Position numbers and translations under genes: made by a program
Notes under the pieces: generated by a model
The model's input: only the letters and a program-made list of their open reading frames with translations
Told to the model about the DNA's origin: nothing
The model's database searches: none
In this document: positions 13,030 through 59,349 of the stretch, in pieces
Numbering within the stretch: the first letter of the stretch is position 1
Layout: each line of letters begins with the position of its first letter
Assembly: GCA_035559595.1 (NCBI GenBank)
Contig: DATMBF010000005.1
Span: forward strand, 100,905-164,904
DNA: 64,000 nt
Direction: 5' to 3'
DNA from: Bacteroidota bacterium
GTDB taxonomy: Bacteria > Bacteroidota > Ignavibacteria > UBA10030

Positions 13030-14699
13030 CGGTTTCCTTCTTGCGACCAGGCAGGACCCTCGCAGGTACACAGCGTGCGAATGAATCGAACGAGACTCCA
13101 GATCTGCTCGCGGGTAAGTGTCTTTCCAAAGGCGGGCATAAAATGACTTTTGCCAAGAACTCTACCGCCACCATAAATTCCATCAAAAAGCGTGTCGTCG
13201 CTTCGCACCGACATGACAGAAGGATCCGAGTGTTTTGCGGGTTGCACAGGGAGGTAGCGGGCGTTAAATCCGTCTCCGTTGCCTCGCAGACCATGACACG
13301 GTGAGCAATAATGCGTGTAAAGGCGCCCGGCTTCGGTTGTGTCAGGTCGGCCGGGATTTCCATGATCGATGATGTTGAGTTGTGGAAGATGTTGAGGTTT
13401 CTTGTCGCGCGTTGATAAAAACGTAGCGAGCAATTCGACATCCGACTTCGGCAATGGGAGGGCAGGCATGGCACTCTCATGAACCGTGCCCTGAGGATCC
13501 TTGATTATTCGGTAAACAAAGGTCGGTTGAAGTCTCGGCTTGAGCGAAGAAAGGTCCGGGCCAACCATTCCTCCCTTACCATCGAAGCGGTGGCAGCCGA
13601 AGCAGGGAAGTTGCGTGCGTAAGATGTTCTCTGCTTTGCGTTGAGAGAATGGCGAAAGACGAGTGGGGGTAAACGTCGCGTCGACATCGCTCTTGAGCGA
13701 AGCGAGGTGTGATGTGAGCGTTTCCAGTTCATCGGTTGTGAGGTCATAAGAGGGCATTCTGCTGCCGGTTCCCGGATGAAAACCGAAAGGCCGGATCGTG
13801 TGCGGTTGTGCGAGGTATGACCGAAGCCATGTCTGATGGACACGAGAGCCTTCTGTGCTTAAATCCGGCGCGTTGTGCCGTTGATTCACTCCACGCATTG
13901 CATGACACCCGCCGCAATTCTGAAACTCGAAAATCCTTGCTCCGTCTTCAGCGGTAACGGTCGGGTTCGCACTCCGAACTCTCTGGTATGCGACCTCCAT
14001 TGTTTCACGTTCCTTTGCCCCAAAGCTCATCAGATAGCTAACCATAACCTGAATCTTGCTTCCTGCATCCTGAATCACCTCTTTCAACTCGTTCTTTTCC
14101 TGATCCTTGCTATAAACTTGCGCCGGCATTGGTGATCCGGGATCAAATGCCTGAGGCAACGCGAGGTATTGGACAAGCCAGTTTGCTTTCGCTCTCAAAC
14201 CAACGCTGACCAAATCCAGAGCAATTGGTCCGCCCTGACCTTCGAGCTTGTGACAGAATGTGCATTTCAACTCATCGACGATCATCTTGCGGGCCTCGGC
14301 AGTACGAGGAGACTTGCGGTCCCACGACTGAACAATCGTGGGGAACGCCGGCAGGGGTTGGTCGGTTTTCAACCGTTCCTTCAAATACAACACTAACGCC
14401 AGCCTCTCCCGCTCGGTTAACCGGAAGTTGGGCATTTGTGTCTTACCGATGTGCAAGCGCACTCGTTTGGGATTCCCAAGATAGTCAAAGAGATACGCTT
14501 CTGGATAACGCAGCCCGGCGTAGCTCAACGATGGAGCTTTGGTTTCAATCTCAGCAGCAGGTTCAACCCCCGGATGACAGGCGCCACAGGCAAGCTCAGT
14601 CACAAGTTGGCGTGCAGATTGGGATTGGGCAGAAGGTGTCAATACGAACACAGCAATGAAGGCAATGGCGAAGTGAACAGACTTCACGAGGGGGACCAC
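13026..14699 (-). CDS. Pentaheme protein made of five class-I cytochrome c domains
   Basis: Five CXXCH motifs (CGACH, CTFCH, CGGCH, CFGCH, CSPCH). Each is followed by a 'GG/GP' turn and a distal Met-Pro (MPNF, MPAQ, MPSY, MPAL, MPAF), the usual Met sixth-ligand arrangement. There is an N-terminal signal peptide. Confidence 0.8.
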   Translation of the reverse strand: MVPLVKSVHFAIAFIAVFVLTPSAQSQSARQLVTELACGACHPGVEPAAEIETKAPSLSYAGLRYPEAYLFDYLGNPKRVRLHIGKTQMPNFRLTERERLALVLYLKERLKTDQPLPAFPTIVQSWDRKSPRTAEARKMIVDELKCTFCHKLEGQGGPIALDLVSVGLRAKANWLVQYLALPQAFDPGSPMPAQVYSKDQEKNELKEVIQDAGSKIQVMVSYLMSFGAKERETMEVAYQRVRSANPTVTAEDGARIFEFQNCGGCHAMRGVNQRHNAPDLSTEGSRVHQTWLRSYLAQPHTIRPFGFHPGTGSRMPSYDLTTDELETLTSHLASLKSDVDATFTPTRLSPFSQRKAENILRTQLPCFGCHRFDGKGGMVGPDLSSLKPRLQPTFVYRIIKDPQGTVHESAMPALPLPKSDVELLATFLSTRDKKPQHLPQLNIIDHGNPGRPDTTEAGRLYTHYCSPCHGLRGNGDGFNARYLPVQPAKHSDPSVMSVRSDDTLFDGIYGGGRVLGKSHFMPAFGKTLTREQIWSLVRFIRTLCTCEGPAWSQEGNR

Positions 14700-21570: not shown

Positions 21571-23247
21571 TTAACGAAGCCTCTCGAGTGCCCTCAGTTT
21601 TTCTTCAGCTCGCCGCTTATATTCGAGCGTGGCTGTGTGTTGCGGATCGATCAGAAGGACTTTGTTCCACTCATCGAGTGCCGCTTTATACTCTTCTTTG
21701 ATGTAGAGCTGAACTCCAGCTCTGAAGATTTTGTCGATCTCAGTTTTTAGTGCTTCTCGCGCACGCTCGAGGTACGTCCTGGCATCACGATGTTTCTCGT
21801 CCCGCTGTAACACTTCGACCATTGTGTTTACAGCAACCCAATAATTCGATTCATCGAAGGCGGCTTTTCCACGCTCAAAGATTTCTTGCACTCTCTTCCC
21901 CCGCACGCTTTCGAGACCCTTTCGCGCGTCGGCATTGCGAGGCTCCATGGCGAGCACTCGCTCGAACTCTCTTTGTGCTTCGTCCAGCTGGTTGCGGCTC
22001 AACAGCGTGCGTGCGCGATTCAAGATCGTCTGGACGTTCTCCTTCATCATTCCCTCTAATTCGGTAAGCTTTACCATGATGCTATCATTCAGAGGGTCGA
22101 GTTCAAGCACCTGCTCATACGAACGCCGCGCACGCTCGAAATCTCGCCGCGCTCGAAGACTGTCACCAACCGAGAGCAGCCTTCGCACATTCGATTCGAG
22201 AATTGGTCTAACTGCCTCCAGCCGCTTTTCAACCTCGGAGTGATTCGGTTGCATTTTCAGAATTGTCTGATATCGTTTGATTGCCTCAACATAGTTCTTT
22301 CGTTCTTCAAGTTTCGATGCTTCGTCAAACAGGGCAGAAACGTTACTATCGAGCTCCGCTTGCGTTTGTTCAATCATTGCATGCGCATTGTGAAAATATT
22401 CATCGTACTCGAGAGCCAGAATGAATTGGTCACGGGCGTCCGACAGCCGTTTTTCTTCATATGCTTCCATCGCTGCTTCAAAATGCTTTGAACGTAAGTC
22501 TTTTGCAGCTTCGCTGAATCTGAAACTTACCGAGAAGACAATGCCGGCTTTGCCGGCCGCGAGCTCAAGTTTCGCAAAGTTGGATTGAAGACTGACCCCA
22601 CCGCGGATTTCCTTAAATGCACGAGATCCAACTTGGAGGCCCAACCAATCTGCAGCCAAGAGTTCGGAACCGACAACGAGTTCACCCCGCTCTGCTTTTT
22701 GCCATCCCGCCTGAACTCTCCAAGTGTCACGCAGGAGCCAAAACCCGACACCTGCTTGCAAACCCATCGGCGAACCGAAAGGCTGCTTCGGCAGATCGTT
22801 GACACTCACGCCGAAATGAAAGCCGGAATTCGCAGAAACGGAGTCCGGAAAATGGAGTGCAGATCCGACCGAGAAAGAAAACGTTTCCTTCGCATTTCGA
22901 AAAAGGTTCAGCACCGCTCCGATCGTGTGTACGTCGCCGATAAGTCCGCCATAGCCGACGGTGTATTGTGTTGCTTGACCGAGTTGCGCAATTCCGGCCC
23001 CAAACGTACCTACAAAGGGGAAAAAATGCGCAGCACTCATAGAAGAGAAATTTGAAAAGCGATTTGTACTGAGGAGAAACTCCGATTGATGGAGGCGAGC
23101 CATCTCAGCCGGATTAGAAAACAAGGCTGACGGACGGGGGAGCCACATACTTGAACTTCCGCCAAGTGCATAATCGTTACCCCCTGTTGTTTGTGCAGCG
23201 AGAGGAGAAATAATGAAAACAAGAAGAAGGTGGGGGAGGTATTTCAT
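21571..23247 (-). CDS. Secreted protein with an N-terminal beta-rich (possibly PorP/SprF-like barrel) domain and C-terminal TPR repeats
   Basis: A signal peptide and 250 aa or so of alternating-hydrophobic beta-like sequence containing an 'FSNPAEMARL' (NPA) motif. The rest is TPR-like repeats (e.g. 'YEQVLELDPLNDSIMVKL'). The gene overlaps the upstream cyclase gene by 4 nt. Confidence 0.55.
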   Translation of the reverse strand: MKYLPHLLLVFIISPLAAQTTGGNDYALGGSSSMWLPRPSALFSNPAEMARLHQSEFLLSTNRFSNFSSMSAAHFFPFVGTFGAGIAQLGQATQYTVGYGGLIGDVHTIGAVLNLFRNAKETFSFSVGSALHFPDSVSANSGFHFGVSVNDLPKQPFGSPMGLQAGVGFWLLRDTWRVQAGWQKAERGELVVGSELLAADWLGLQVGSRAFKEIRGGVSLQSNFAKLELAAGKAGIVFSVSFRFSEAAKDLRSKHFEAAMEAYEEKRLSDARDQFILALEYDEYFHNAHAMIEQTQAELDSNVSALFDEASKLEERKNYVEAIKRYQTILKMQPNHSEVEKRLEAVRPILESNVRRLLSVGDSLRARRDFERARRSYEQVLELDPLNDSIMVKLTELEGMMKENVQTILNRARTLLSRNQLDEAQREFERVLAMEPRNADARKGLESVRGKRVQEIFERGKAAFDESNYWVAVNTMVEVLQRDEKHRDARTYLERAREALKTEIDKIFRAGVQLYIKEEYKAALDEWNKVLLIDPQHTATLEYKRRAEEKLRALERLR

Positions 23248-24869
23248 TCTACTGGTGCGTAATCAATGCGGTGGACGGGGACTCGCTCCTGTTTTCCTTT
23301 GATAGCGACCTTCCCTTCCGATCGTGTCTTGTAATTGCCGTTGAGTCTCGCAACGACGGTATCGCCAACGAGAATCTGGTCAGCCTCTGCGATGGCGCAC
23401 AATCGAGCAGCGAGATTGACCGTATCACCGATGGCGGTGTAGTCCATTCTGTCTTGTGACCCGATGCTTCCCATCACGGCTACTCCTGTCGCAATACCGA
23501 TGCCAACCTTGAGTGTTATGTCGCCGCTGGCCCCCCGTTCCTTGTTGAGTTTTGCCACCGCACATTGGATGTCCACTGCCGCCTTAACGGCCTGCTGCAC
23601 CATCTTCTCGCCTGTGAAGATGCTCATAATCCCGTCGCCCAAGAATTTATCAACTACTCCGCCGTTCTGATGAATGATGGTTGTTTGCAGGTCGAGGTAG
23701 TGGTTCAACACGACGACAACCTCTTCAGGCCACTTACTTTCGGAAACAGAAGTGAAGTTTCGGATGTCTGTGAACATGGCGGTAATGACTCGCCGGCTTC
23801 CGCCCAATGTCACCTCTTTTCCCTGGGCGATCATTTGAGCTGTCGCTCTGGAAACAAACTTCTGCATCTCCGTCTTTTCCCGAATCTGCAAGACCATCAT
23901 GTTGAATTCATGGGCGAGGCTGCCTAACTCGTCTTTGACACGAGTGGCTACCGAGACTTTGAGGTCTCCCATCCCCACACGTCTTGCAGCATCGGCAAGA
24001 ACGATAATGATATGGACGGCCTTCTTCGAGAAGATCGCCACGAGAGCAATTACAATTATAGAGACAATCGAGGCCGTGAGAATGATAGTGTTTTTGAGCT
24101 CTTCGATTGGAGCAAGCAGGATGGCTTTCGAAAAGCCAACGGAAGCGGCCCCAATAAGGATCTGCTTGGTTTCATTTCCCTCTCTCTTTGACACAGTAAC
24201 CGCCTTGATAAATCTGAACGACTCGGGAGACTCGATCGCCCGTGCAGAATCAGTCCTTGCAAGGAGGTCCCACTCCGCCAACGAAATCAGCTTGTTCATG
24301 CTGTCAGGTACCACATGTGCAACAATCGTTCCCGTCCGATCGACGACGAACAAATGATCGAGCCCCGGAATGTTCTGCTTGGTGATATTCTTCACGTAGT
24401 CCTGCAAGACGATGTAAGAGCCCAGGAGAAGATTATCCTCGGCGACAGCGGCAAGACTCTGCACGATGTTCGTGCCCAACACTTGTGTTTGTACGCGAAG
24501 CTCCCGCTCCTGGATCTGCAGCGCAATGGTGCTAATGATGATCGTAACCACAATTACTGAACCGCCGACGATGAGGCTCAGCTTAATCCGAATCTTTAAT
24601 CGGAGGAAGGTCTCAACAGCATAACCCCACGCGGCCTGGAGGTTCTCTTTGATCGTGCGAGCAATGCGCCGAATAGCAGGTCTGGCTTTCGTTGTCTGTT
24701 GTTGAACGGAGTCCTGAAGAAGGAGCGTGAGTCGCGTGATTTCTTTCCCGAAACGTTTGGCGAGTGGTATGGTGTGATGAAACGCCTCTTCAACGTACTG
24801 TCGCGCGGCCGCGATCAGTTTCGACGCTGATGCGAGGATCCGTTTCGGGTCAAAGGAAGGAGTGGACAT
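23244..24869 (-). CDS. Membrane-anchored class III adenylate/guanylate cyclase with HAMP domain
   Basis: TM segments, a HAMP-like linker, then CYCc motifs 'VTAMFTDIRNFTSVSE', 'VDKFLGDGIMSIF' and 'GIATGVAVMGSIGS...DYTAIGDTVNLAARL'. Confidence 0.8.
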   Translation of the reverse strand: MSTPSFDPKRILASASKLIAAARQYVEEAFHHTIPLAKRFGKEITRLTLLLQDSVQQQTTKARPAIRRIARTIKENLQAAWGYAVETFLRLKIRIKLSLIVGGSVIVVTIIISTIALQIQERELRVQTQVLGTNIVQSLAAVAEDNLLLGSYIVLQDYVKNITKQNIPGLDHLFVVDRTGTIVAHVVPDSMNKLISLAEWDLLARTDSARAIESPESFRFIKAVTVSKREGNETKQILIGAASVGFSKAILLAPIEELKNTIILTASIVSIIVIALVAIFSKKAVHIIIVLADAARRVGMGDLKVSVATRVKDELGSLAHEFNMMVLQIREKTEMQKFVSRATAQMIAQGKEVTLGGSRRVITAMFTDIRNFTSVSESKWPEEVVVVLNHYLDLQTTIIHQNGGVVDKFLGDGIMSIFTGEKMVQQAVKAAVDIQCAVAKLNKERGASGDITLKVGIGIATGVAVMGSIGSQDRMDYTAIGDTVNLAARLCAIAEADQILVGDTVVARLNGNYKTRSEGKVAIKGKQERVPVHRIDYAPVE

Positions 24870-33402: not shown

Positions 33403-34161
33403 GTGGGCAGAAGAATCATCTATAAGATTGAGGATAATTCGCAAAACTCGTTCACGGAAGACCAGTGGCAAGAAGTACAGCGCCTTCAACATTGGTACAA
33501 CAGCGAGTTCACCTGGACGGCAGGAAAAATCGCCTTTAAGAGATATGTTCTCTTTCCGAATGTCGAAGAGTTCTCCAATCTTGATCTCTCCATTTGGGAG
33601 ATCATCGCACAGCGCTACGAGTCGCTCGCAGCACAGGGGCTCTCGGAACGTGACGTTATTACGCAACTCGAAAAGGACAGGCTTGTCTTCGTGAAATGGG
33701 GCGGGTATTTCGATGATTGTTTGGGGAGCGGGTTTACGCGGGTTGCCGACAACGAGTGGAATGCTTTTCTGGTGTGCGACTTTTTGCTCAAAGCATCAAC
33801 GCTCCTCACGGATGCAACCATCCAAGTGATCGATGAGGGGAGATTTATTAAGATGGGATCAATCGGCCTTCGAAACGGCAAAGTTCTCTTGAGTCGAAGG
33901 AAGCAACAAAAAGAAAGAGGGGAAAGCCCGCGAGGACATGTCTTTTCTATTGTCGATCCGGAGAAATACGACAAGCACCCGAAGTTCAAGAATACGATTC
34001 CTGATTTCAATTCTCTGGCGAAGAAGGAGCGGCTGGCGTGGATTCAGAATTGGAATTGGCTCGGCTACGGCGACAGCTATGACGCCGATGGCGACGACGA
34101 AAAAGGATTCGACTTGAATAAAAAGATTCGAAATATCGAATACCTGGATGACCAACAATGA
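33403..34161 (+). CDS. Hypothetical Trp-rich protein encoded directly after ribE (GTG start)
   Basis: A 252-aa ORF beginning at a GTG immediately after the ribE stop. It has no recognisable family, and a terminator follows at 34276-34301. Confidence 0.4.
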   Translation: MGRRIIYKIEDNSQNSFTEDQWQEVQRLQHWYNSEFTWTAGKIAFKRYVLFPNVEEFSNLDLSIWEIIAQRYESLAAQGLSERDVITQLEKDRLVFVKWGGYFDDCLGSGFTRVADNEWNAFLVCDFLLKASTLLTDATIQVIDEGRFIKMGSIGLRNGKVLLSRRKQQKERGESPRGHVFSIVDPEKYDKHPKFKNTIPDFNSLAKKERLAWIQNWNWLGYGDSYDADGDDEKGFDLNKKIRNIEYLDDQQ

Positions 34162-34687: not shown

Positions 34688-34760
<73 letters not shown>

Positions 34761-34795
34761 CTGCGTGAATTCGGATTGGGGAGGAGACTTTATTT

Positions 34796-34881
34796 GCCGA
34801 AGTGGCGGAATTGGTAGACGCGCTGGACTCAAAATCCAGTCCGGCTTACCCCGGGTGAGAGTTCGAGTCTCTCCTTCGGCA
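34796..34881 (+). tRNA. tRNA-Leu (anticodon CAA), long variable arm
   Basis: Acceptor GCCGAAG/CTTCGGC, anticodon stem CTGGA/TCCAG with loop CTCAAAA (CAA), a 14-nt variable arm, T-arm GAGAG-TTCGAGT-CTCTC. Total 86 nt. Confidence 0.85.
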
Positions 34882-34882
34882 C

Positions 34883-35080
34883 ATGTGTACGGTGTATCTA
34901 CTCCGGTCGTGGGAGGATTTCAGGTTGTATGGGAGATTTACGCGGAACCTGCCGAAGAGACTCAAGGAACACAGAGTTGGTGGTGTTGCGTCGACGAAGT
35001 TTCGCGTTCGAAGAAATACATCGGCGGTGAAGTCGGCCATTGGAACGACAACAGAAGTATTTACCAGCCGGTTGAAATAG
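34883..35080 (+). CDS. GIY-YIG nuclease family-like small protein, probably C-terminally degenerate
   Basis: The 65-aa ORF starts 2 nt after tRNA-Leu. 'TVYLLRS...LYGRFTRNLPKRLKEHRVGGVASTKFRVRR' resembles the small GIY-YIG consensus (YVYILKS...YIGYTNNLERRLKEHN.G.GAKYTRGRRP), but the ORF ends early. Confidence 0.35.
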   Translation: MCTVYLLRSWEDFRLYGRFTRNLPKRLKEHRVGGVASTKFRVRRNTSAVKSAIGTTTEVFTSRLK

Positions 35081-35221
35081 ACAAAACGCTCCCTGCGATC
35101 CTCCTTGCCTTCCCGTCAATACTTCCCTACATTTAAACCATCGAAAGCATTCTTCATTCTTCGGAGTTCATGATGGCGTAAGGATACTGTGTTGTAGAAA
35201 CCCCATCTCATCGTATCCTTC

Positions 35222-38200
35222 ATGAACGTTCTTCTTCGTTTTCTTTCTCTTCTGCTTGCAGTCAGTCCGCTTCTCGTTCAACGGTCTTTTTCACAAACAG
35301 GCTTCAAGGGTAAGGATCTTGATCACCCTATCTTCTTGGCACGGGTGAGTCCGAACGATTCGCTTGTCCAGCTTCCCCATCATTTCCTCATCTCTTCGAG
35401 TGTTACCGTCCATCTTGATACGCTAAACCTTGTCGATGGGCAAGACTATTCGCTAAATGCCCGATATGGACAGCTGAGATTACTCGCTGCTTTTAAATCT
35501 CGAATCCAACCTGATTCAACGGTTCAACTGTTGATCCGCTATCGAGCTCTTCCTCTGAACTTCAAGCCGGAATACCGACGCAACGAACTTATGATGCGAG
35601 GCATAGAGGGGGACACGACCTCTCGACGGATTGTGTCGAGCGCGGCAGCCTCTTCGTTCGGCGATTTGTTTGGGCCAAATCTTCAGAAAAGTGGATCGAT
35701 CTTTCGCGGGTTTACGTTTGGGTCGAATCGAGATCTCTCCCTGAGCTCTGGCTTTCGAATGCAATTGAGCGGAAAGCTTTCCGAGGATGTCGAGCTTGTT
35801 GCAGCGTTGACAGATGAGAATTCCCCCATTCAGCCCGAGGGATCGACACAAACTCTTCAGGAGGTCGACAAGGTGTTCGTTGAGCTTCAGCACCCTACCT
35901 ACGGTGCAACGCTTGGTGACTTTATGATCGAGCAAAGCAAGACGGAAGGGGGCGAGTTCGGGAGGTTCGCCAGAAAAGTTCAGGGAGCAAGGGGTGTGGC
36001 TCGCGCATCGTCCCTGGGAAGTGTTCTTGGCGTTGCCTCATTCTCCATTGCCGCAGCGACGAATCGTGGGAAATTTCACAATAATCAGTTTCAGGGAATT
36101 GAGGGTGCGCAGGGTCCATATCGGTTGAGCGGTCGAAACGGCGAGCGTCGCATCATTGTGATTGCAGGCAGCGAGCGCGTGTATCTTAACGGGGAGCTTA
36201 TGACGCGGGGAGAAACGAACGATTACGTCATCGACTATGCCGCTGCCGAAGTTACCTTCAGCAGCAAACGACTCATCACCAACGCTTCACGAATTAGTAT
36301 CGATTTTGAATATTCGGACCGTAACTATACCCGGAACCTCTTTGCTTCGACAACAAGCGTGCAGTCTGAAGACAAATCATTTTCCCTCAATGCTTCAGTT
36401 CTTCAGGAAGCGGATGACCCCGATTCTCCGATTGACGTCGCCCTTGACGAAACCAGCAAGTTCATCCTTCAGCGGAGCGGGGATGATCGGCTGAAGTCAA
36501 GCATCAGCGGTATCCGTTTTGTTGGGAATGACTCAGCCAGCGGCCTCCCCCTTGGTCAATACCTTCTGCAAGACACCGTCATCGCCGGCAGGTCATATTC
36601 CATCTTGGTGTATGCACCGGGGGATCCAGAGGCGCTCTATTCGGCTAATTTCTCGATTGTCGATCGCATGCCGGCCGATTCGGCCGGATACGAGCGCGTT
36701 GGCGTTGGGCACTTTCGCTTTGCGGGAATCGGCAAGGGGAATTACCTCCCGCTTCAATTCATTCCTCTTCCGCAGCGTCACCGGTTTTTGAACCTGAACG
36801 GTGGTGGAGTCGTGATGAAGGGACTTTCGATCAACGCGGAATATGCCGTTAGCGAGTTTGACGCGAATCGCCTCTCGATGCTCGATGCGCAGGATCAAAG
36901 AGGGACGGCCTCGAAAGTGACCGCTCAATACGAGGAAAAAGACGTCAGAATCGGCAGTGCAAATCTCGGTTCGCTTCGTTTTTCGTTCGGGCGTAGATAT
37001 GTCGATCGGCGCTTCGTTGCGCCGGACCGATTCAATGAAGTGGAATTCGGTCGCAAATGGGATGTTGACTTGAGAACAAAAACACACGAGGAGCTGCGGG
37101 AGGCGAGTGTTGCGTACTCACCATTTGCCGCCCTCAGTGTTGATGCAACGTATGGATCGTTCGAGCGACAAGGTGCGGAGCGGTCCACTCGCCTCGAGGC
37201 AGGTGTGAAGGTTGACCGGAGCGATGTGCCCCGGCTTTCGTATCGAGCAGAAAATATTCGTTCAGAGAATCATCTTCAACACACATCTTCTTCCTGGCTG
37301 CGCCAACGGGCTGCGGTGGATTATTCTTACGGTATGTTTGCTCCCGGATTGCGGGCAGAGGCGGAAAATCGGCTGGTCACTTCACGATTTTCGGATTCGG
37401 CGCTGGCCGGCAGTTTCAAGATTCTTGAGATAGCGCCCCGAATGGCAATAACGCAATGGGGACCCATGAATGCTTCCGTGGAATTTCAGATTCGCTCTGA
37501 GGACAGTGCCTCAGGCGGCCGCGTTCAAAGAGCCCTCGAATCGTTTTCTCAGCTTTACTCCTGGCAGCTCCGTGAGTGGAATTCTCTTTCCAGTCATCTT
37601 AATCTCAGTATCCGCACCGTTCGGTTCTCTGATGCATTCATAGCACGTGGCAATACCAATTCTGAAGTCATCCTTGTGAGGTCACTCTCGCGCTACATCC
37701 CCCTTCAGCGTGCTGTGGAGGCTGAAATCTTCTATGAGTTTTCCAGCCAGCGTTCGGCGCACCTTGAGCGTGTGTTCGTGCGTGTGCCGAGAGGAAGCGG
37801 AAACTATCGCTATCTTGGCGATCGTAATAATAACGGGATTGCAGATGAGGAGGAGTTTGAGTTGACCAGATTTGATGGGGACTACATTGTCGTTATGGTC
37901 CCAAGTGATCAATTATTCCCGATTGTAGAGCTCAAAGCAAGTTCGCGGTTGCGACTTTATGGAGAGCGTCTCGTGGGGGGGAACGGTCTCCTTGCGTCGA
38001 TTGCGCGGAGCCTTTCAACGGAAACGTATCTCCGCGTAGACGAAAGAAGCAATGAATCCGACACAAAACAAATCTATTTGCTCAACCTCAGCAGATTCCA
38101 GAATCCGGCAACAACCATCTCCGGTTCAAATCTGATCCAGCAAGATTTGCATGTTTTCGAGAACAAACCGGATCTCTCCTTTCGGTTCCGGTTCCAGCAA

Positions 38201-38779
38201 CGGAAAGGACTCGTTCAGCTTCTTTCTGTGACGGAACAAAACTCCATGCGTGAGCGGTCAGTTCGCATTCGGAGTCAGCTTGTCCGCGAGATTGGGAATA
38301 CCACGGAATTCGTGAATAAAACTGACCGCGTGGTGGCATCAGGGACAAGTCTACGCGAACGTGACATCTTTTCAAACGCATTGAGCTCGGACTTTTCGTA
38401 TCGACCGTTTGCACAATGGGAGATCGGCTTTCGTTTTGATGTGTCGGAGATTGAGGATCGATGGCCAGGTGTTGAGGCGAAGGCCGCAATTAATGAGCAG
38501 AGTGTCAGGGTAGTCTATGCAGTGTTCGGCCTTGGACAATTCAGGATAGAAGGGGAGAGGGAGGAGGTGATAGTGTTACAGGGATCGTCATCGACGAATC
38601 GACCGTTTGTCTTTGAGTTCACCGGCGGGAGAGTGATCGGGAAGACTTTGCTTTGGCAGGTTGCTTTTGATTATAGAATTGGTCAAAATGTACAGGTCAC
38701 CCTGCAATACAACGGTCGAACGGAAGGCGGGAGATCACCTCTTCACTTTGCTCGGGCCGAAGCAAGAGCATTTTTCTAA
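35222..38779 (+). CDS. Large (1185 aa) predicted outer-membrane beta-barrel protein, uncharacterised
   Basis: Signal peptide MNVLLRFLSLLLAVSPLLVQRSFSQ, beta-strand-like alternating patterns over its length, and a C-terminal aromatic residue (...RAEARAFF) typical of OMP beta-barrel signature. No family assigned. Confidence 0.55.
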   Translation: MNVLLRFLSLLLAVSPLLVQRSFSQTGFKGKDLDHPIFLARVSPNDSLVQLPHHFLISSSVTVHLDTLNLVDGQDYSLNARYGQLRLLAAFKSRIQPDSTVQLLIRYRALPLNFKPEYRRNELMMRGIEGDTTSRRIVSSAAASSFGDLFGPNLQKSGSIFRGFTFGSNRDLSLSSGFRMQLSGKLSEDVELVAALTDENSPIQPEGSTQTLQEVDKVFVELQHPTYGATLGDFMIEQSKTEGGEFGRFARKVQGARGVARASSLGSVLGVASFSIAAATNRGKFHNNQFQGIEGAQGPYRLSGRNGERRIIVIAGSERVYLNGELMTRGETNDYVIDYAAAEVTFSSKRLITNASRISIDFEYSDRNYTRNLFASTTSVQSEDKSFSLNASVLQEADDPDSPIDVALDETSKFILQRSGDDRLKSSISGIRFVGNDSASGLPLGQYLLQDTVIAGRSYSILVYAPGDPEALYSANFSIVDRMPADSAGYERVGVGHFRFAGIGKGNYLPLQFIPLPQRHRFLNLNGGGVVMKGLSINAEYAVSEFDANRLSMLDAQDQRGTASKVTAQYEEKDVRIGSANLGSLRFSFGRRYVDRRFVAPDRFNEVEFGRKWDVDLRTKTHEELREASVAYSPFAALSVDATYGSFERQGAERSTRLEAGVKVDRSDVPRLSYRAENIRSENHLQHTSSSWLRQRAAVDYSYGMFAPGLRAEAENRLVTSRFSDSALAGSFKILEIAPRMAITQWGPMNASVEFQIRSEDSASGGRVQRALESFSQLYSWQLREWNSLSSHLNLSIRTVRFSDAFIARGNTNSEVILVRSLSRYIPLQRAVEAEIFYEFSSQRSAHLERVFVRVPRGSGNYRYLGDRNNNGIADEEEFELTRFDGDYIVVMVPSDQLFPIVELKASSRLRLYGERLVGGNGLLASIARSLSTETYLRVDERSNESDTKQIYLLNLSRFQNPATTISGSNLIQQDLHVFENKPDLSFRFRFQQRKGLVQLLSVTEQNSMRERSVRIRSQLVREIGNTTEFVNKTDRVVASGTSLRERDIFSNALSSDFSYRPFAQWEIGFRFDVSEIEDRWPGVEAKAAINEQSVRVVYAVFGLGQFRIEGEREEVIVLQGSSSTNRPFVFEFTGGRVIGKTLLWQVAFDYRIGQNVQVTLQYNGRTEGGRSPLHFARAEARAFF

Positions 38780-38802
38780 ATCATTCGTACGGAGGAACGC
38801 TG

Positions 38803-39210
38803 ATGCAAAGAAGGAATCTTCTCATGCTGATGATGGTTTTTGTGATTGGCGGAATTGGATGTGATCAGCTTGTTAATGAATACACCATAGACGAGGCAGT
38901 GTATGCGCGGGTTACCACGTTTGAGGCAGTATCTGACTCCTCTGCACAATCTTCGATAGGGTTAAGGATTTCAGGATCGCTTGGCAACACGACCGCCTAT
39001 TCGCTCGAAGCCATTCAATGGGAACGAGTGGACACGCTCTTTCGCGTTGCTGTCGTCGCACGGCATCGCGAGAACAGCAATGGGCAATATACACCAAAGG
39101 ATATTCGGCTGGATACCGTGATGATCTTCCAATCACCGAAGCTTGGATGGCACTACTTTCTCCTTCATCCACTCAACGGAGGGACTCGCGACTCGACGTT
39201 TGTGCGTTAG
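38803..39210 (+). CDS. Small lipoprotein downstream of the giant OMP
   Basis: N-terminus MQRRNLLMLMMVFVIGGIGCDQ (lipobox GC). The 135-aa protein starts 21 nt after the OMP stop. Confidence 0.45.
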   Translation: MQRRNLLMLMMVFVIGGIGCDQLVNEYTIDEAVYARVTTFEAVSDSSAQSSIGLRISGSLGNTTAYSLEAIQWERVDTLFRVAVVARHRENSNGQYTPKDIRLDTVMIFQSPKLGWHYFLLHPLNGGTRDSTFVR

Positions 39211-41595: not shown

Positions 41596-42030
41596 CTAAG
41601 GCTGCTTGCTTGAACTGACGAGAACGATGTTTCCCCAGTAGTCTGGATGAATGTAGTGGGTGATCAGACTGTTGAATTCAGGAACTCGGGAGGAAGGGAG
41701 GATAATGTAGAGAACTGCTTGAGAGCGATTGGATGAGTGAAATTGGTCGAGGAAGACGTTGTATTGTGTGAGCGCGTGCTCTGTTTCTAAGTCTGCCACC
41801 CCGGTTTTTGCCTCCCCTATAACGTATCGCTTGCGAACAGGGTCAAAAGCATAGATGTCCGGTGCTTTATCCTCCTGATCCCCGTAGCCATCATTGTGCA
41901 ACGGTTCGGGTTGCGGTAGACCCTCCAATCCCTCAACGGCCAGGATCTTGAAATTCTCTTGCTTGAAAATTTCAAGAAGCTCGATAACCAACGCATGATG
42001 TTTTTCCAGATCCTCCTGAGGACGCGCCAT
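41596..42030 (-). CDS. Hypothetical 144-aa protein translationally coupled to bshA
   Basis: Its start lies 3 nt after the bshA stop. 'DIYAFDP...YVIGEAKT' resembles a D...(E/D)xK nuclease-like core, but family assignment is uncertain. Its stop abuts the uvrD stop on the opposite strand. Confidence 0.4.
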   Translation of the reverse strand: MARPQEDLEKHHALVIELLEIFKQENFKILAVEGLEGLPQPEPLHNDGYGDQEDKAPDIYAFDPVRKRYVIGEAKTGVADLETEHALTQYNVFLDQFHSSNRSQAVLYIILPSSRVPEFNSLITHYIHPDYWGNIVLVSSSKQP

Positions 42031-56633: not shown

Positions 56634-58832
56634 CTACTTCTGTTGCAACACAAACACGCCGCTCCAATTTGCGTCTGGGGGATTAAGCTTGTACAATTGC
56701 ATGCGGTCGATATAGAGCTGGCAGACAGGATCCTCGGGCTTATACTGCATGGCGTGCTCCATATAGGCAATCCCTTCATCCCACTGCCTCTTGTGATAGC
56801 ATGTAATTCCTTCCCGGTAGCTATCCAGAAAATACTTCATGTTATCAGAAAGTGGTCGATCGGCGGCGGCGATCAGTTCATAAATCCGAACCGGCTCGGT
56901 TTTTCCGACCACAATGACTTTGTCGATCTCGCGGGCAACCACCTTTTTCGCAACCTTGAGATAGGTCATTTCACTGATGAGGATATATGTGCCGTACTGC
57001 TTGTTGACGCCTTCAAGCCGGCTCGCAAGATTCACGCTATCGCCCATCGCCGTGTAGTTGAATTTCTGATCGGATCCCATATTCCCCACAACGCAGAGTC
57101 CGGTGTTTATTCCTACCCTTTGCTTAATTGTTACATCCCCGAATTTCCTCCATCGAGGCGCGAGCGAATCAAGCTTCGCTTGCATTTCCAATGCCGCAAG
57201 GCACGCATGAAACGGCGCATCTGGATCCGGCAATGGTGCCCCCCAGAAGGCCATAATGGCATCTCCAATAAACTTATCCACCGATCCCCGATTCCTCATA
57301 ATGATATTGGTCATTTCCGTCAAATAAACATTCAAAAGTTTTACGAGGTTTTCGGGACCAAGCGTTTCGGAGATCGTTGTGAACCCCTTGACGTCTGAAA
57401 AAAGCAGTGTCACTTCGCGCATCTCGCCGCCAAGCTTCATCTTCGTCGGATCATTGATTAACTCCCGCACAACGGCGCGATCAACGTACTTCTCAAACAT
57501 ATTTGTGATCATCCGCTTCTGCTTACCTTCGGTCGCGGCCCTGTAGGCAACGGTTCCCAAGAAGCATGTGAACATCGCAAACACGGGTTCGATAACGTTA
57601 TACCAGGTATTCCCCTGAGCAAATGCAAAGTAAGCAAACGTAAAGTAGACAACGGTAAGAATCACCAGCGCTATCGTTCCAGTTTTCATTGGCCGGTGGT
57701 TGGCCACGAAGGAGATGCCAATGGTAATCAACAGGAGAATAACGAACTGCACCGCACCGGTAGCCGGATAGATGAAGTTGTTCGTCACAATCATGTCATA
57801 GACGTTTGCGTGCGCAACGTACCCTGGGGCGCGTTCGGAAAACGGCATGGGATAATAGTCGCCGACGGCTCGTGCCGTGGGCCCGATGATGCACACCTTG
57901 TTCTTGAACTGCTCAAAGAACTGCATGTCTTGATCCCGAAAGGCCTGGAGAACATCATAAAACGAGACCGAGGGAAGATTCTCGTAGGGTCCGATGTAAT
58001 TGATCAGGACATCGCCCTGGTGATCTGTGTCGAACGTAATCGGACCGGCCTTGACGGTCGTTCCGTCCTCCGTCGTTGTGAAGGAAATTTGATTTGGTCT
58101 AATCTTGAGGGTGTGGAGGGCGAGGGCAAGACCGAGGGTGGGGTAAAGCCGTCCAGCGTACTCCACAAAGGCGGGAACAGAGCGAATACTCCCATCTGGC
58201 GAGGGATGGAGAGTGGCATCACCGACGCCAGTTGAGACATCTGCCAATTCCTTGAACGGAAAGTCATTGATCAAGGGAGCTCGAAAGAAGGAATGCGTCG
58301 GAGGTGCAGGAATTCCAAATCTTCCAATGACGTGGTGTGCGGTGCTGTCGACATCTCGTGCGGAGATTGCTTCTCGTGACGTTTGGGCTGGAATAAACGG
58401 ACCGATAATTTGGAACGTCCCCTGCGTTGCTCGAAGCATCTCCACCATTTTTTGTGCTTCTTCAATCTCTTTCTCCGTCGGCTCAGCCGAGAAGATATCG
58501 AGCGCCACGGCTTTAGCTCCTCCGATATCAGGACGGCTCAGCAACGTCATTACCGCTCCAATCTGGTCGCGTGGAATCGGGTAGTTCATCTGCTGGATGG
58601 TGTATTCGTCGATCCGAATCATGACAACATCGCCGGCATGGGGACGCTCTCCGCGCACACGCATGAGCGCATCATACCCCTTCTGCTCGATGTTTCTGAA
58701 GATGTCGGTCCCGAGCGTATCGAGAAGGAGCGTGGTGTTAAAGAGAATATAGGTGAGAATGACCGTGCCAAGGGCAAAACCCAAGGCGACTCCGGATTTC
58801 TTAAGGTCAAGGTTCAGTTTGATGGTAGCCAT
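56634..58832 (-). CDS. CHASE2 sensor domain-containing class III adenylate/guanylate cyclase
   Basis: The N-terminal periplasmic CHASE2-like region lies between TM helices. Cyclase motifs are 'VTLLFSDVKGFTTISE', 'VDKFIGDAIMAFWGAP' and 'GINTGLCVVGNMGSDQKFNYTAMGDSVNLASRLE', and the C-terminal extension is typical of CHASE2-cyclase proteins. The start was chosen at MATIKLNLDLKK (58832); the ORF track start at 59144 adds 104 aa with no obvious features. Confidence 0.75.
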   Translation of the reverse strand: MATIKLNLDLKKSGVALGFALGTVILTYILFNTTLLLDTLGTDIFRNIEQKGYDALMRVRGERPHAGDVVMIRIDEYTIQQMNYPIPRDQIGAVMTLLSRPDIGGAKAVALDIFSAEPTEKEIEEAQKMVEMLRATQGTFQIIGPFIPAQTSREAISARDVDSTAHHVIGRFGIPAPPTHSFFRAPLINDFPFKELADVSTGVGDATLHPSPDGSIRSVPAFVEYAGRLYPTLGLALALHTLKIRPNQISFTTTEDGTTVKAGPITFDTDHQGDVLINYIGPYENLPSVSFYDVLQAFRDQDMQFFEQFKNKVCIIGPTARAVGDYYPMPFSERAPGYVAHANVYDMIVTNNFIYPATGAVQFVILLLITIGISFVANHRPMKTGTIALVILTVVYFTFAYFAFAQGNTWYNVIEPVFAMFTCFLGTVAYRAATEGKQKRMITNMFEKYVDRAVVRELINDPTKMKLGGEMREVTLLFSDVKGFTTISETLGPENLVKLLNVYLTEMTNIIMRNRGSVDKFIGDAIMAFWGAPLPDPDAPFHACLAALEMQAKLDSLAPRWRKFGDVTIKQRVGINTGLCVVGNMGSDQKFNYTAMGDSVNLASRLEGVNKQYGTYILISEMTYLKVAKKVVAREIDKVIVVGKTEPVRIYELIAAADRPLSDNMKYFLDSYREGITCYHKRQWDEGIAYMEHAMQYKPEDPVCQLYIDRMQLYKLNPPDANWSGVFVLQQK

Positions 58833-59349
58833 GGCGACCCAATTCGTGGTGTGAAAATGCTCGAAAAAACCGCCGTAATGTAAGAATGGACTCAGCCAAA
58901 AGCAACAGAAGGAGATGGCGAAGCAATTTGAGAAGAATCTGCGCTTGTCAAATCCCTCCCTGCTAAATGCCATGAACGACAGGCTCTTCCAGCATTCATC
59001 ATGTATTACTGTATCCGTCGATCCGGTCATTCGATTGGCTTCCTTGACATGCATACCCTCTTTTGATATATTGGCTCTACGTTTGGCAGGTCGGTTGTTA
59101 AACCATCCACTATAGTTTGCGACAGTTTGCGCAAGAAAGCGCACCGCTTCCTTCGTCTGGTACCCATTTCCACCACAATGGTTTGGCGTTCCTTCGATTC
59201 AGTCTTCGGTTGTTGCGTTTGCTCTCCGGTGATCATCCTCACATATTCTTCCGCTGAAAAACGGGTATTTTGTGTAGTTGACGATCAGCGGGGCGGGAGA
59301 ACCGTTTGCAGTGCACAGTTAACTACTCTCAACATTTCCGGTCAACACT

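What the first reader, a model, noticed from the sequence alone, without database searches (positions are those of the whole stretch)
35222..39210. 1185-aa predicted outer-membrane beta-barrel protein with trailing lipoprotein, of no assigned family
The protein has a signal peptide, length-spanning beta-strand periodicity and a terminal aromatic (…RAEARAFF), which is the classic BAM-recognition signature. An OMP of about 1200 aa is much larger than porins or TonB-dependent receptors and has no POTRA-like N-terminus. The gene is followed 21 nt later by a small lipoprotein (lipobox GIGC). Large barrels paired with lipoproteins in this phylum include T9SS (SprA-like), LptD/LptE-like and Sus-like systems, and none is recognisable here.
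Basis: seen in the sequence. Interest (0 to 1): 0.5.

Follow-up and report, generated by a model that had tools for sequence, protein, structure and literature searches.

The report
Giant uncharacterised outer-membrane barrel of Ignavibacteria
This gene encodes a very large outer-membrane barrel protein (about 38 strands, which would slightly exceed the largest barrel solved so far) that is found across the bacterial class Ignavibacteria, belongs to no named family, and most resembles the pore of the type 9 protein-secretion system; the small lipoprotein gene behind it is a local add-on, not a regular partner.

Summary
ORF 35222-38779 (+) encodes a 1185-aa secreted protein ending in Phe, and a 135-aa lipoprotein gene follows 23 nt later. 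AlphaFold2 on a diverse alignment (pLDDT 86, pTM 0.74) gives about 38 long antiparallel strands (range 36-40), with nearly all long loops on one side. Fold searches return only outer-membrane barrels, and the 36-strand T9SS translocon SprA is the top hit with both models.

No Pfam or NCBIfam family claims the protein, and every database name is "hypothetical". It is nevertheless a large, full-length family (over 3,700 clusters at 50% identity; 341 species genomes), seen only in Ignavibacteria.

Two homologous small beta-domains, one N-terminal and one in loop 4, match one region of the SprA model. The protein fails SprA membership, and cultured Ignavibacteria are reported to have a separate SprA.

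The lipoprotein follows the gene in only 6 of 84 related loci, and no other neighbour is conserved across the class.

Best reading: a new, cap-less, SprA-like giant barrel that probably acts as a partner-gated large conduit. The fold is well supported. The function is inferred. I did not see model coordinates, so strand count and barrel closure are unverified.

The parts
35222..38779 (+). Gene for the 1185-aa giant outer-membrane beta-barrel protein (HWP81218.1), stop codon included
   Evidence: ORF. More than 1,165 full-length homologues. AF2 model with pLDDT 86.4 and pTM 0.74. Fold searches return only OM barrels, with SprA on top. Accession.
35222..35293 (+). Sec signal peptide (about aa 1-24; cleavage before Gln20 or Gln25)
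   Evidence: Hydrophobic helix at residues 2-22. Family consensus A|Q with Gln in 76% of sequences. Q-rule in I. album (PMC5837995). The exact cleavage site was not predicted with a dedicated tool.
35330..35551 (+). N-terminal small all-beta domain (aa 37-110), copy 1 of the SprA-type domain; periplasmic or plug position is inferred
   Evidence: Seven short strands in DSSP, pLDDT 75-90. Consensus matches TIGR04189 positions 597-640, E=9e-5. Homologous to the loop-4 domain by hhalign, probability 98.1%, E=1.3e-13.
35681..36094 (+). Barrel strands 1-7 (aa 154-291), among the most conserved parts of the protein
   Evidence: DSSP strands. Blocks 151-180 and 191-220 are among the most conserved.
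35801..35875 (+). Loop 2 motif AALTDENSPIQPEGSTQTLQEVDKV (aa 194-218), the most conserved stretch of the family yet low-confidence in both models
   Evidence: P202 99%, P205 100%, G207 100%, T209 99%, D198 and D216 98% over 360 sequences. pLDDT below 50 at residues 200-216 in both models.
36107..36319 (+). Loop 4 insert (aa about 296-366), copy 2 of the SprA-type small beta-domain (GSERVYLNG...DY.IDY..GEVTF...RI.VDFEY)
   Evidence: Window protein aa 313-366 matches TIGR04189 positions 604-655, E=9e-4. Consensus E=4.7e-7 for the segment alone and 3.2e-10 for the whole protein. 19 of 41 members hit at E<=0.01. Also a weak match to DUF2460/TIGR02217, the phage distal tail protein family. pLDDT 85-92 in model 2.
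36431..36775 (+). Loop 5 insert (aa 404-518), a 115-residue mixed alpha/beta domain with no detectable relatives
   Evidence: DSSP and pLDDT 80-92. No family hit. Not related to the other two domains.
36776..38773 (+). Barrel strands 10-38 (aa 519-1184), a continuous run of long beta-hairpins
   Evidence: pLDDT mostly 85-97. Short turns alternate with longer loops.
37820..37855 (+). Calcium-binding-type loop D-x-N-x-N-G-I-x-D-x-x-E (aa 867-878) inside loop 13
   Evidence: D867 92%, N869 84%, N871 76%, G872 79%, E878 80% (+16% D), F879 91% over 360 sequences. Calcium binding is inferred from the motif only.
38747..38776 (+). C-terminal strand with BAM beta-signal (…HFARAEARAFF)
   Evidence: F1185 99%, A1183 95%, H1175 91%, E1180 90%. 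230 of 235 full-length members end in Phe.
38803..39210 (+). 135-aa lipoprotein gene (HWP81219.1); a lineage-specific accessory, not a family-wide partner
   Evidence: ORF. Homologues lie directly downstream of the barrel gene in only 6 of 84 loci. The 7-sequence alignment shows a conserved Cys and DTLF/NG/DS motifs. Only its own cluster was found in the 5.8-billion-protein search. No Pfam or NCBIfam family.

Best explanation
The gene encodes a Sec-exported, BAM-inserted, single-chain giant outer-membrane beta-barrel of about 38 strands (range 36-40). It is a stand-alone gene seen once per locus examined, and it is found across the class Ignavibacteria.

Anatomy of the mature protein:
- An N-terminal small beta-domain on a flexible linker.
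- The barrel itself.
- A homologous second copy of that small domain in extracellular loop 4.
- A 115-residue insert in loop 5.
- A nearly invariant but flexible loop 2.
- A calcium-type loop in loop 13.

Conservation is concentrated in strands 1-8, loops 2 and 4, and the last strand. These would lie around the seam where the first and last strands meet.

Only about 380 residues lie in the putative extracellular loops, compared with SprA, which is about twice as long. So the barrel cannot cap its own lumen the way SprA does. I infer that it works like SprA: a large-bore conduit for folded proteins or other bulky cargo across the outer membrane, kept sealed and gated by separate partner proteins encoded elsewhere. 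The N-terminal domain may serve as a docking or plug element.

The trailing lipoprotein is an accessory acquired in one sub-clade.

Shown: the gene, the family, the barrel fold, the domain duplication, the local SprA similarity, and the lack of conserved neighbours. Inferred: the strand count from secondary structure only, barrel closure, the sidedness of loops, and the whole functional mechanism.

My confidence that it is a giant OM barrel of an unnamed family is about 0.9. My confidence that it acts as a SprA-like gated translocon is about 0.3-0.35. The single confidence value given for this explanation (0.45) is for the statement as a whole.
For: Fold:
- AF2 with the diverse alignment A3 gives pLDDT 86.4 and pTM 0.74, with 38 long strands.
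- Foldseek puts four SprA entries on top with both models (E 1.8e-11 and 2.4e-12), about 4 orders of magnitude ahead of SusC, BtuB, SlpA and LptD.
- Loop asymmetry is 377 versus 90 residues, and every insert of 20 or more residues is on the same side.
- The C-terminal Phe is 99% conserved. The signal peptide has A|Q cleavage.

SprA link:
- TIGR04189 is the only recurrent family hit (window protein E=9e-4; family consensus E=3.2e-10 with two stretches; 19 of 41 members, best 7.6e-8).
- The two matching domains are homologous to each other.

Family:
- 3,716 clusters at 50% identity, with full-length matches among the 150 listed.
- 341 species genomes.
- Members down to 27% identity are still all Ignavibacteria, including the cultured Rosettibacter firmus.

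Biological context:
- Ignavibacteria carry T9SS-type C-terminal sorting domains on many secreted enzymes (PMC3534657).
- They are reported to have SprA, PorV and Plug but no other T9SS protein (PMC11705866). Their outer-membrane protein export is therefore atypical and leaves room for an additional conduit.
Against: - No coordinates were available to me. Strand count, closure between the first and last strands, lumen size and the position of the N-terminal domain are unverified.
- My coevolution test of closure was uninformative.
- Neither the domain profile nor the consensus hits the F. johnsoniae SprA sequence in the PDB.
- The shared small domain also weakly matches phage distal-tail proteins. 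It may be a mobile beta-sandwich rather than a sign of common descent of the barrels.
- No T9SS gene or any other functional partner is conserved next to the gene. Function therefore rests on resemblance alone.
Confidence: 0.45

Rival explanations
1. It is a structural or major outer-membrane protein, or a general diffusion pore, comparable to the 30-strand SlpA of Deinococcus. In this reading it is an abundant giant barrel that shapes the envelope and lets nutrients through, and is not a dedicated translocon.
Against: There is no SLH or other peptidoglycan-binding domain. The strongest conservation is in two loops and a SprA-type domain rather than in the barrel wall. That pattern points to a specific interaction. 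An unplugged pore of this width would be hard to tolerate.
Confidence: 0.2
2. It is the Ignavibacterial orthologue of SprA itself, a compact version of the T9SS translocon that exports the proteins carrying C-terminal sorting domains.
For: SprA is the best structural and the only recurrent sequence hit. Ignavibacteria have T9SS-tailed substrates. In one divergent relative, a T9SS-tailed arylsulfotransferase lies 27 nt downstream.
Against: The protein scores 16.5 bits against a 200-bit equivalog cut-off, and only about 80 of 2,319 model positions match. There is no SprA_N Pfam hit. It is half the length of SprA. A BLAST survey reports SprA, PorV and Plug in Ignavibacterium and Melioribacter. 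That SprA can hardly be this protein, because this family is undetectable against F. johnsoniae SprA by sequence.
Confidence: 0.1
3. It is a sheath for another envelope component. The barrel would permanently surround a protein that spans the outer membrane, as the 26-strand MtrB surrounds the cytochrome MtrA, or it would surround an appendage.
Against: No cytochrome or appendage gene is linked to the barrel gene in any lineage examined. The MtrB match is no better than those of dozens of other barrels.
Confidence: 0.08
4. It is an LptD/LptE-like pair: the barrel inserts lipopolysaccharide or another lipid into the outer leaflet, with the downstream lipoprotein acting as its plug.
For: A lipoprotein gene lies 23 nt downstream in the window. 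LptD chains appear among the structural hits. Conservation clusters near the putative first-last strand seam, which is where LptD opens (inference).
Against: No LptD, OstA or LptE family hit even at E<=10. About 38 strands against 26 in LptD. The N-terminal domain is not a beta-jellyroll of the Lpt type by sequence. The lipoprotein is absent from 78 of 84 related loci and its family is tiny.
Confidence: 0.06
5. It is not one closed barrel. The chain would form two or more smaller barrels, or an open or soluble beta structure, and the giant barrel would be a modelling artefact.
For: Multi-barrel chains exist (PMC8346858). I could not inspect coordinates, and my coevolution test did not show first-last strand pairing.
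Confidence: 0.05

Closest known systems
SprA/Sov, the type 9 secretion system translocon (36-strand barrel; PDB 6H3I, 8GL8; NCBIfam TIGR04189)
   Same: Both are single-chain giant outer-membrane barrels of the Bacteroidota/FCB lineage. SprA is the best Foldseek hit with both models. Two small beta-domains here match positions about 597-684 of the SprA model. Like SprA, the barrel would need separate proteins to seal it (inference; SprA uses PorV and Plug, PMC10994853).
   Different: It is half the length (1185 aa against more than 2,100 residues in the solved SprA chains). It is far below the family cut-off (16.5 against 200 bits) and has no SprA_N domain. It has no large extracellular cap: only about 380 residues lie in the putative outer loops. 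It is undetectable against F. johnsoniae SprA by sequence. Global superposition is poor (TM about 0.26-0.30). Ignavibacteria are reported to have a separate SprA.
Predicted superfamily of 38- and 40-strand barrels (families 003 and 002 of Solan et al., PNAS 2021, PMC8346858)
   Same: These are single-chain barrels predicted from sequence and contact maps to exceed the 36 strands of SprA. My strand count for this protein is about 38.
   Different: The paper's main text gives no taxon, accession or length for these families, and its supplements are not held. Identity with this family could not be tested. The word 'Ignavibacter' does not occur in the text.
SlpA of Deinococcus radiodurans (30-strand barrel; PDB 8AE1, 7ZGX, 8AGD)
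   Same: It is a very large single-chain barrel and a core envelope protein. It is among the better structural matches.
   Different: SlpA is described as a trimeric 30-strand barrel that is part of an S-layer complex (entry names). From my own knowledge it also has an SLH domain and a coiled-coil stalk. None of these features is detectable here.
LptD-LptE lipopolysaccharide insertase (26-strand barrel plugged by a lipoprotein)
   Same: It is a large barrel, and in this window a lipoprotein gene follows. LptD chains appear among the structural hits.
   Different: There is no sequence similarity to the LptD, OstA or LptE families. It has about 12 more strands. The lipoprotein is confined to one sub-clade.

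Membership tests
SprA/Sov T9SS translocon (TIGR04189, PF14349) | Scores at or above the curated equivalog cut-off of TIGR04189 (200 bits) over most of the 2,319-position model | tested here: not met
   The window protein scores 16.5 bits and the family consensus 37.9 bits. Only model positions about 597-684 are matched.
SprA/Sov T9SS translocon (TIGR04189, PF14349) | SprA N-terminal Pfam domain (PF14349; accession from my own knowledge) present | tested here: not met
   No Pfam hit for the protein or for the consensus, even at E<=10.
SprA/Sov T9SS translocon (TIGR04189, PF14349) | A protein of well over 2,000 residues whose 36-strand barrel carries a large extracellular cap with a lateral opening | tested here: not met
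   1185 aa, about 38 strands, and about 380 residues in the putative outer loops. Presence of a lateral opening could not be assessed without coordinates.
SprA/Sov T9SS translocon (TIGR04189, PF14349) | Forms complexes with PorV, Plug and PPI, and is required for export of proteins with T9SS C-terminal domains | not testable with these tools
   This needs biochemistry or genetics. No such genes are linked to the barrel gene.
SprA/Sov T9SS translocon (TIGR04189, PF14349) | Shares recognisable sequence or fold elements with SprA | tested here: met
   Two domains match the SprA model, and 19 of 41 members do so on their own. SprA is the top Foldseek hit with both models. This shows resemblance, not membership.
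Outer-membrane beta-barrel proteins inserted by BAM | Signal peptide, meander of antiparallel strands with short turns on one side and long loops on the other, and a C-terminal aromatic beta-signal | tested here: met
LptD (LPS-assembly protein) with LptE | LptD/OstA family domains and an N-terminal Lpt beta-jellyroll | tested here: not met
   No LptD or OstA family hit in Pfam or NCBIfam at E<=10. The jellyroll was tested by sequence only.
LptD (LPS-assembly protein) with LptE | A conserved plug lipoprotein partner | tested here: not met
   The lipoprotein follows the gene in 6 of 84 related loci only. It has no LptE family hit.
SusC/TonB-dependent transporters | Plug domain, TonB box and 22-strand barrel family domains | tested here: not met
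   No TonB-dependent receptor, Plug or SusC family hit. Structural fits to 22-strand barrels are partial and poor. No SusD-like gene lies adjacent.
Omp85/BamA/TamA | POTRA domains followed by a 16-strand Omp85 barrel | tested here: not met
   No POTRA or Omp85 family hit. The N-terminal domain is all-beta.
38/40-strand barrel superfamily of Solan et al. 2021 | Sequence membership in their families 002 or 003 | not testable with these tools
   No accessions or sequences are in the held text, and the supplements are not held.

The most novel reading that the evidence does not exclude
This is a new class of outer-membrane conduit. It would be a cap-less single-chain barrel of 38-40 strands, wider than the 36-strand SprA that is still cited as the largest known (preprint of March 2026). 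It would be universal in Ignavibacteria and would work with as yet unknown plug or carrier proteins, independently of or alongside the reduced type 9 system these bacteria are reported to have.
Probability: 0.3. Interest if true: 0.8.

Novelty: new variant of a known kind. Interest (0 to 1): 0.58.

Why it matters
If the model is right, a whole bacterial class builds a barrel at least as wide as the largest one ever solved from half as much protein and with no cap of its own. That raises three direct questions: what seals a pore several nanometres wide, what passes through it, and how BAM folds it.

Ignavibacteria carry many enzymes with type 9 sorting tails. Yet they are reported to lack the type 9 motor and ring proteins. 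An extra SprA-like conduit is therefore a concrete candidate for the missing part of their secretion route.

The family also fills an annotation gap. Thousands of sequences in soils, sediments and groundwater are labelled only 'hypothetical'. Cultured species that carry the gene (Rosettibacter firmus, and probably Ignavibacterium album, seen here only as a MAG assigned to that species) make it experimentally approachable.

Tried and rejected
- **PDB sequence searches.** I queried with the protein, the family profile, the loop-4 consensus and a loop-4 profile. None gave a meaningful hit, and none hit F. johnsoniae SprA.
- **Obtaining SprA sequences for a profile-profile test.** I found no route. 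No SprA gene lies in the 1.17 Mb of loci I held; the only ORF of 1,300 aa or more, in L018, is TafC-like. A paper on the SprA C-terminal domain prints no sequence.
- **AFDB fold library.** It was not available.
- **Coevolution test of barrel closure.** I ran mean-field direct-coupling analysis on 360 sequences (Meff 283, reduced alphabet). Hairpin controls barely exceeded the null, and the top pairs were indel artefacts at strand ends. The test neither supports nor refutes first-last strand pairing.
- **Hydrophobic alternation in the strands.** It did not distinguish barrel strands from strands of the soluble domains.
- **Guilt by association.** The secG-tRNA-barrel-(ogt)-uvrD-144aa-GT4 order is conserved in one large sub-group. 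It dissolves in divergent lineages and contains no envelope-related partner.
- **Leader region 34883-35221.** It contains no known RNA family and no convincing sigma-70 promoter.
- **Plasmid homologues.** None found.
- **Solan et al. 38/40-strand families.** Whether either is this family could not be resolved.

Full report
**Observation.** The window holds an ATG-initiated ORF at 35222-38779 (+) of 1185 codons ending ...RAEARAFF. A second ORF at 38803-39210 (+) encodes 135 residues starting MQRRNLLMLMMVFVIGGIGC. The spacer is 23 nt, not 21, and contains GGAGGA six bases before the second ATG. Both are deposited as hypothetical proteins HWP81218.1 and HWP81219.1 of a Bacteroidota MAG. Upstream lie riboflavin synthase, a 252-aa protein of no family, SecG, tRNA-Lys and tRNA-Leu. 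Downstream lie UvrD/PcrA, a 144-aa gene on the other strand and a GT4 glycosyltransferase. Composition is uniform across the window. Nothing suggests a mobile element, and no plasmid carries a relative.

**The gene is real and belongs to a large unnamed family.** A word-indexed search found more than 1,165 homologues. The 120 listed are nearly all full-length (about 1,175-1,190 aa, about 50% identical), have no Pfam domain and are named only 'hypothetical'. An exhaustive profile search found 3,716 representative clusters at 50% identity, of which 2,173 scored below E=1e-30. A scan of one genome per species found relatives in 341 genomes. The 80 kept are MAGs labelled Ignavibacteria, Ignavibacteriota or 'Bacteroidota', including an Ignavibacterium album MAG. 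Members down to 27% identity still align end to end. A search seeded with the most divergent member again returned only Ignavibacteria. These included Melioribacteraceae and the cultured Rosettibacter firmus, whose RefSeq entry is also 'hypothetical protein'. Pfam gives nothing, even at E<=10. NCBIfam gives only a sub-threshold local hit.

**Fold.** AlphaFold2 on 46 fairly similar sequences gave a mediocre model (pLDDT 71.7, pTM 0.51). On 41 sequences spanning 25-60% identity it gave pLDDT 86.4 and pTM 0.74. Low confidence remained only in the signal-peptide end, a linker (residues 118-146) and loop 200-216.

From the secondary structure I count the following:
- a seven-strand N-terminal beta-domain (aa 37-110);
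- a poorly defined hairpin (aa 123-138);
- 38 long strands from aa 154 to aa 1184.

The barrel is interrupted by inserts of 65 residues (loop 4) and 115 residues (loop 5). Connections from odd to even strands total 377 residues, and those from even to odd total 90. Every insert of 20 or more residues is on the same side. This is the classic pattern of short periplasmic turns and long surface loops. I could not see coordinates, so the count (36-40) and the closure of the barrel are inferences.

The last residue is Phe in 99% of 360 sequences. The family signal peptide ends A|Q, which matches the Q-rule reported for I. album (PMC5837995).

**Link to SprA.** The window protein hits NCBIfam TIGR04189 (SprA/Sov) at aa 313-366, E=9e-4. 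The family consensus hits it at E=3.2e-10 with two stretches. The loop-4 insert maps to model positions 604-674 and the N-terminal domain to 597-640. Scanned individually, 19 of 41 diverse members hit the model at E<=0.01 (best 7.6e-8). It is the only recurrent hit apart from a phage distal-tail model matched by 11 members. The two domains are homologous to each other (hhalign probability 98.1%, E=1.3e-13).

The similarity stops there:
- 16.5 bits against a 200-bit cut-off;
- no SprA_N Pfam domain;
- no hit to the F. johnsoniae SprA sequence from any query;
- half the length of SprA.

A BLAST survey reports SprA, PorV and Plug, but no other T9SS protein, in Ignavibacterium and Melioribacter (PMC11705866). 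Since this family is invisible to F. johnsoniae SprA by sequence, that SprA is presumably a different gene. I therefore do not file the protein as SprA. I describe it as a SprA-like giant barrel that shares a small domain with it.

**The lipoprotein.** tblastn of the 135-aa protein against 84 related loci found homologues (30-38% identity) in six: L005, L007, L008, L009, L012 and L027. Each lies directly behind the barrel gene. All seven sequences have a Cys at the end of the hydrophobic segment and share DTLF, NG and DS motifs, so the gene is real. Elsewhere the downstream gene is most often a 167-169-aa Ogt-type methyltransferase followed by UvrD, or UvrD directly. The large protein search found only the lipoprotein's own cluster. 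It is a sub-clade accessory, not the family's partner. The LptD/LptE analogy therefore loses its main support.

**Neighbourhood.** The order secG-(tRNAs)-barrel-(ogt)-uvrD-144aa-GT4 recurs in many relatives. In divergent lineages the neighbours are unrelated. Rosettibacter has MacB-type ABC exporters and a NUDIX gene. The P0267 lineage has TrmE/GidA and a T9SS-tailed arylsulfotransferase. The P0274 lineage has an Fe-S oxidoreductase. The gene is effectively stand-alone, so context gives no function.

**Conserved features.**
- The most conserved stretch is loop 2, AALTDENSPIQPEG(T/N)TQTL.E.DKV, with P205 and G207 invariant. Both models leave it disordered.
- Next in conservation come the loop-4 domain, strands 1-2 and the C-terminal strand. 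In a closed barrel these would surround the seam between the first and last strands.
- Loop 13 carries D-x-N-x-N-G-I-x-D-x-x-E-F, conserved at 76-92% per key position. This is a calcium-binding-type loop by motif only.

**Mechanism.** A barrel of about 38 strands should have a lumen comparable to that of SprA. This protein has only about 380 residues in its surface loops and an N-terminal domain of about 75 residues, too little to cap or fill such a lumen (inference). The options are sealing by partner proteins, as PorV and Plug seal SprA (PMC10994853), permanent occupation by a passenger, or an abundant structural pore. I favour a partner-gated large conduit because of three points: the SprA resemblance, the conservation of loops rather than wall, and the atypical secretion inventory of Ignavibacteria. 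I rate this at about one in three. The structural-pore reading is about one in five. The others are lower.

**Prior art and novelty.** SprA (36 strands) was still called the largest known barrel in a March 2026 preprint. Solan et al. 2021 predicted a 'superfamily of large OMBBs' with 38- and 40-strand barrels from contact maps (PMC8346858). I could not establish whether this family is among them, because the text gives no identifiers and the supplements are not held. I found no paper that names or studies this Ignavibacterial family. I class it as a new variant of a known kind.

**Limits.**
- No coordinates were available to me.
- I could not run a SprA profile-profile test.
- The AFDB library was not available.
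- The coevolution and amphipathicity tests were uninformative.
- I did not check directly whether the same genomes also hold a full SprA or an LptD.

Noticed in passing
window 34688-34761 and 34796-34882 (+); ORF 34765-35136: tRNA-Lys(CTT) and tRNA-Leu(CAA) sit between secG and the barrel gene. The 123-aa ORF listed at 34765-35136 overlaps tRNA-Leu and is almost certainly spurious. The 340-nt leader that follows has no known RNA family; there is only a chance-level TrxA-thermometer match at E=0.18.
   Followed up: yes
window 41596-42030 (-): A 144-aa gene of no Pfam family lies tail-to-tail with uvrD. Genes of the same size and position occur in relatives L001-L004, and tblastn finds it in 18 of 84 loci. 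It is a conserved unknown.
   Followed up: partly
window 33403-34161 (+): A 252-aa protein with no Pfam or NCBIfam family lies directly upstream of secG. A 257-aa gene with no Pfam hit holds the same position in L003/L004, and tblastn finds it in 10 of 84 loci.
   Followed up: partly
window 10765-14699 (-): Two adjacent large cytochrome genes. One is a 768-aa protein combining multihaem cytochrome motifs (including MtrC/MtrF-like) with C-terminal TPR repeats. The other is a 557-aa protein with five cytochrome c domains and FixO-like matches. This is a possible extracellular or periplasmic electron-transfer module.
   Followed up: no
window 56634-59144 (-) and 23244-24869 (-): Two sensor adenylate/guanylate cyclases: one CHASE2-cyclase-TPR (836 aa) and one sCache-HAMP-cyclase (541 aa).
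   Followed up: no
L086 12483-14135 (+): In the most divergent relative examined (P0267), the gene 27 nt downstream of the barrel gene is an arylsulfotransferase with a weak T9SS C-terminal sorting domain (Por_Secre_tail). This is a single case that could be chance, or a hint at cargo.
   Followed up: no
window 38780-38802: A GGAGGA Shine-Dalgarno-like motif lies six bases before the lipoprotein start codon. No such motif precedes the barrel gene. Other gene calls for the lipoprotein start at Met8 (128 aa).
   Followed up: partly
L018 2-4783 (-): An ORF of at least 1,594 aa, cut by the locus end, lies near the barrel gene of a fen Ignavibacteria MAG. It has a weak TafC-family fimbrial match in its C-terminal part and is not SprA.
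   Followed up: partly
window 35801-35875 (aa 194-218 of the barrel protein): The most conserved segment of the whole family is predicted as disordered by both AlphaFold2 runs. That is unusual and suggests a partner-binding or gating loop.
   Followed up: partly
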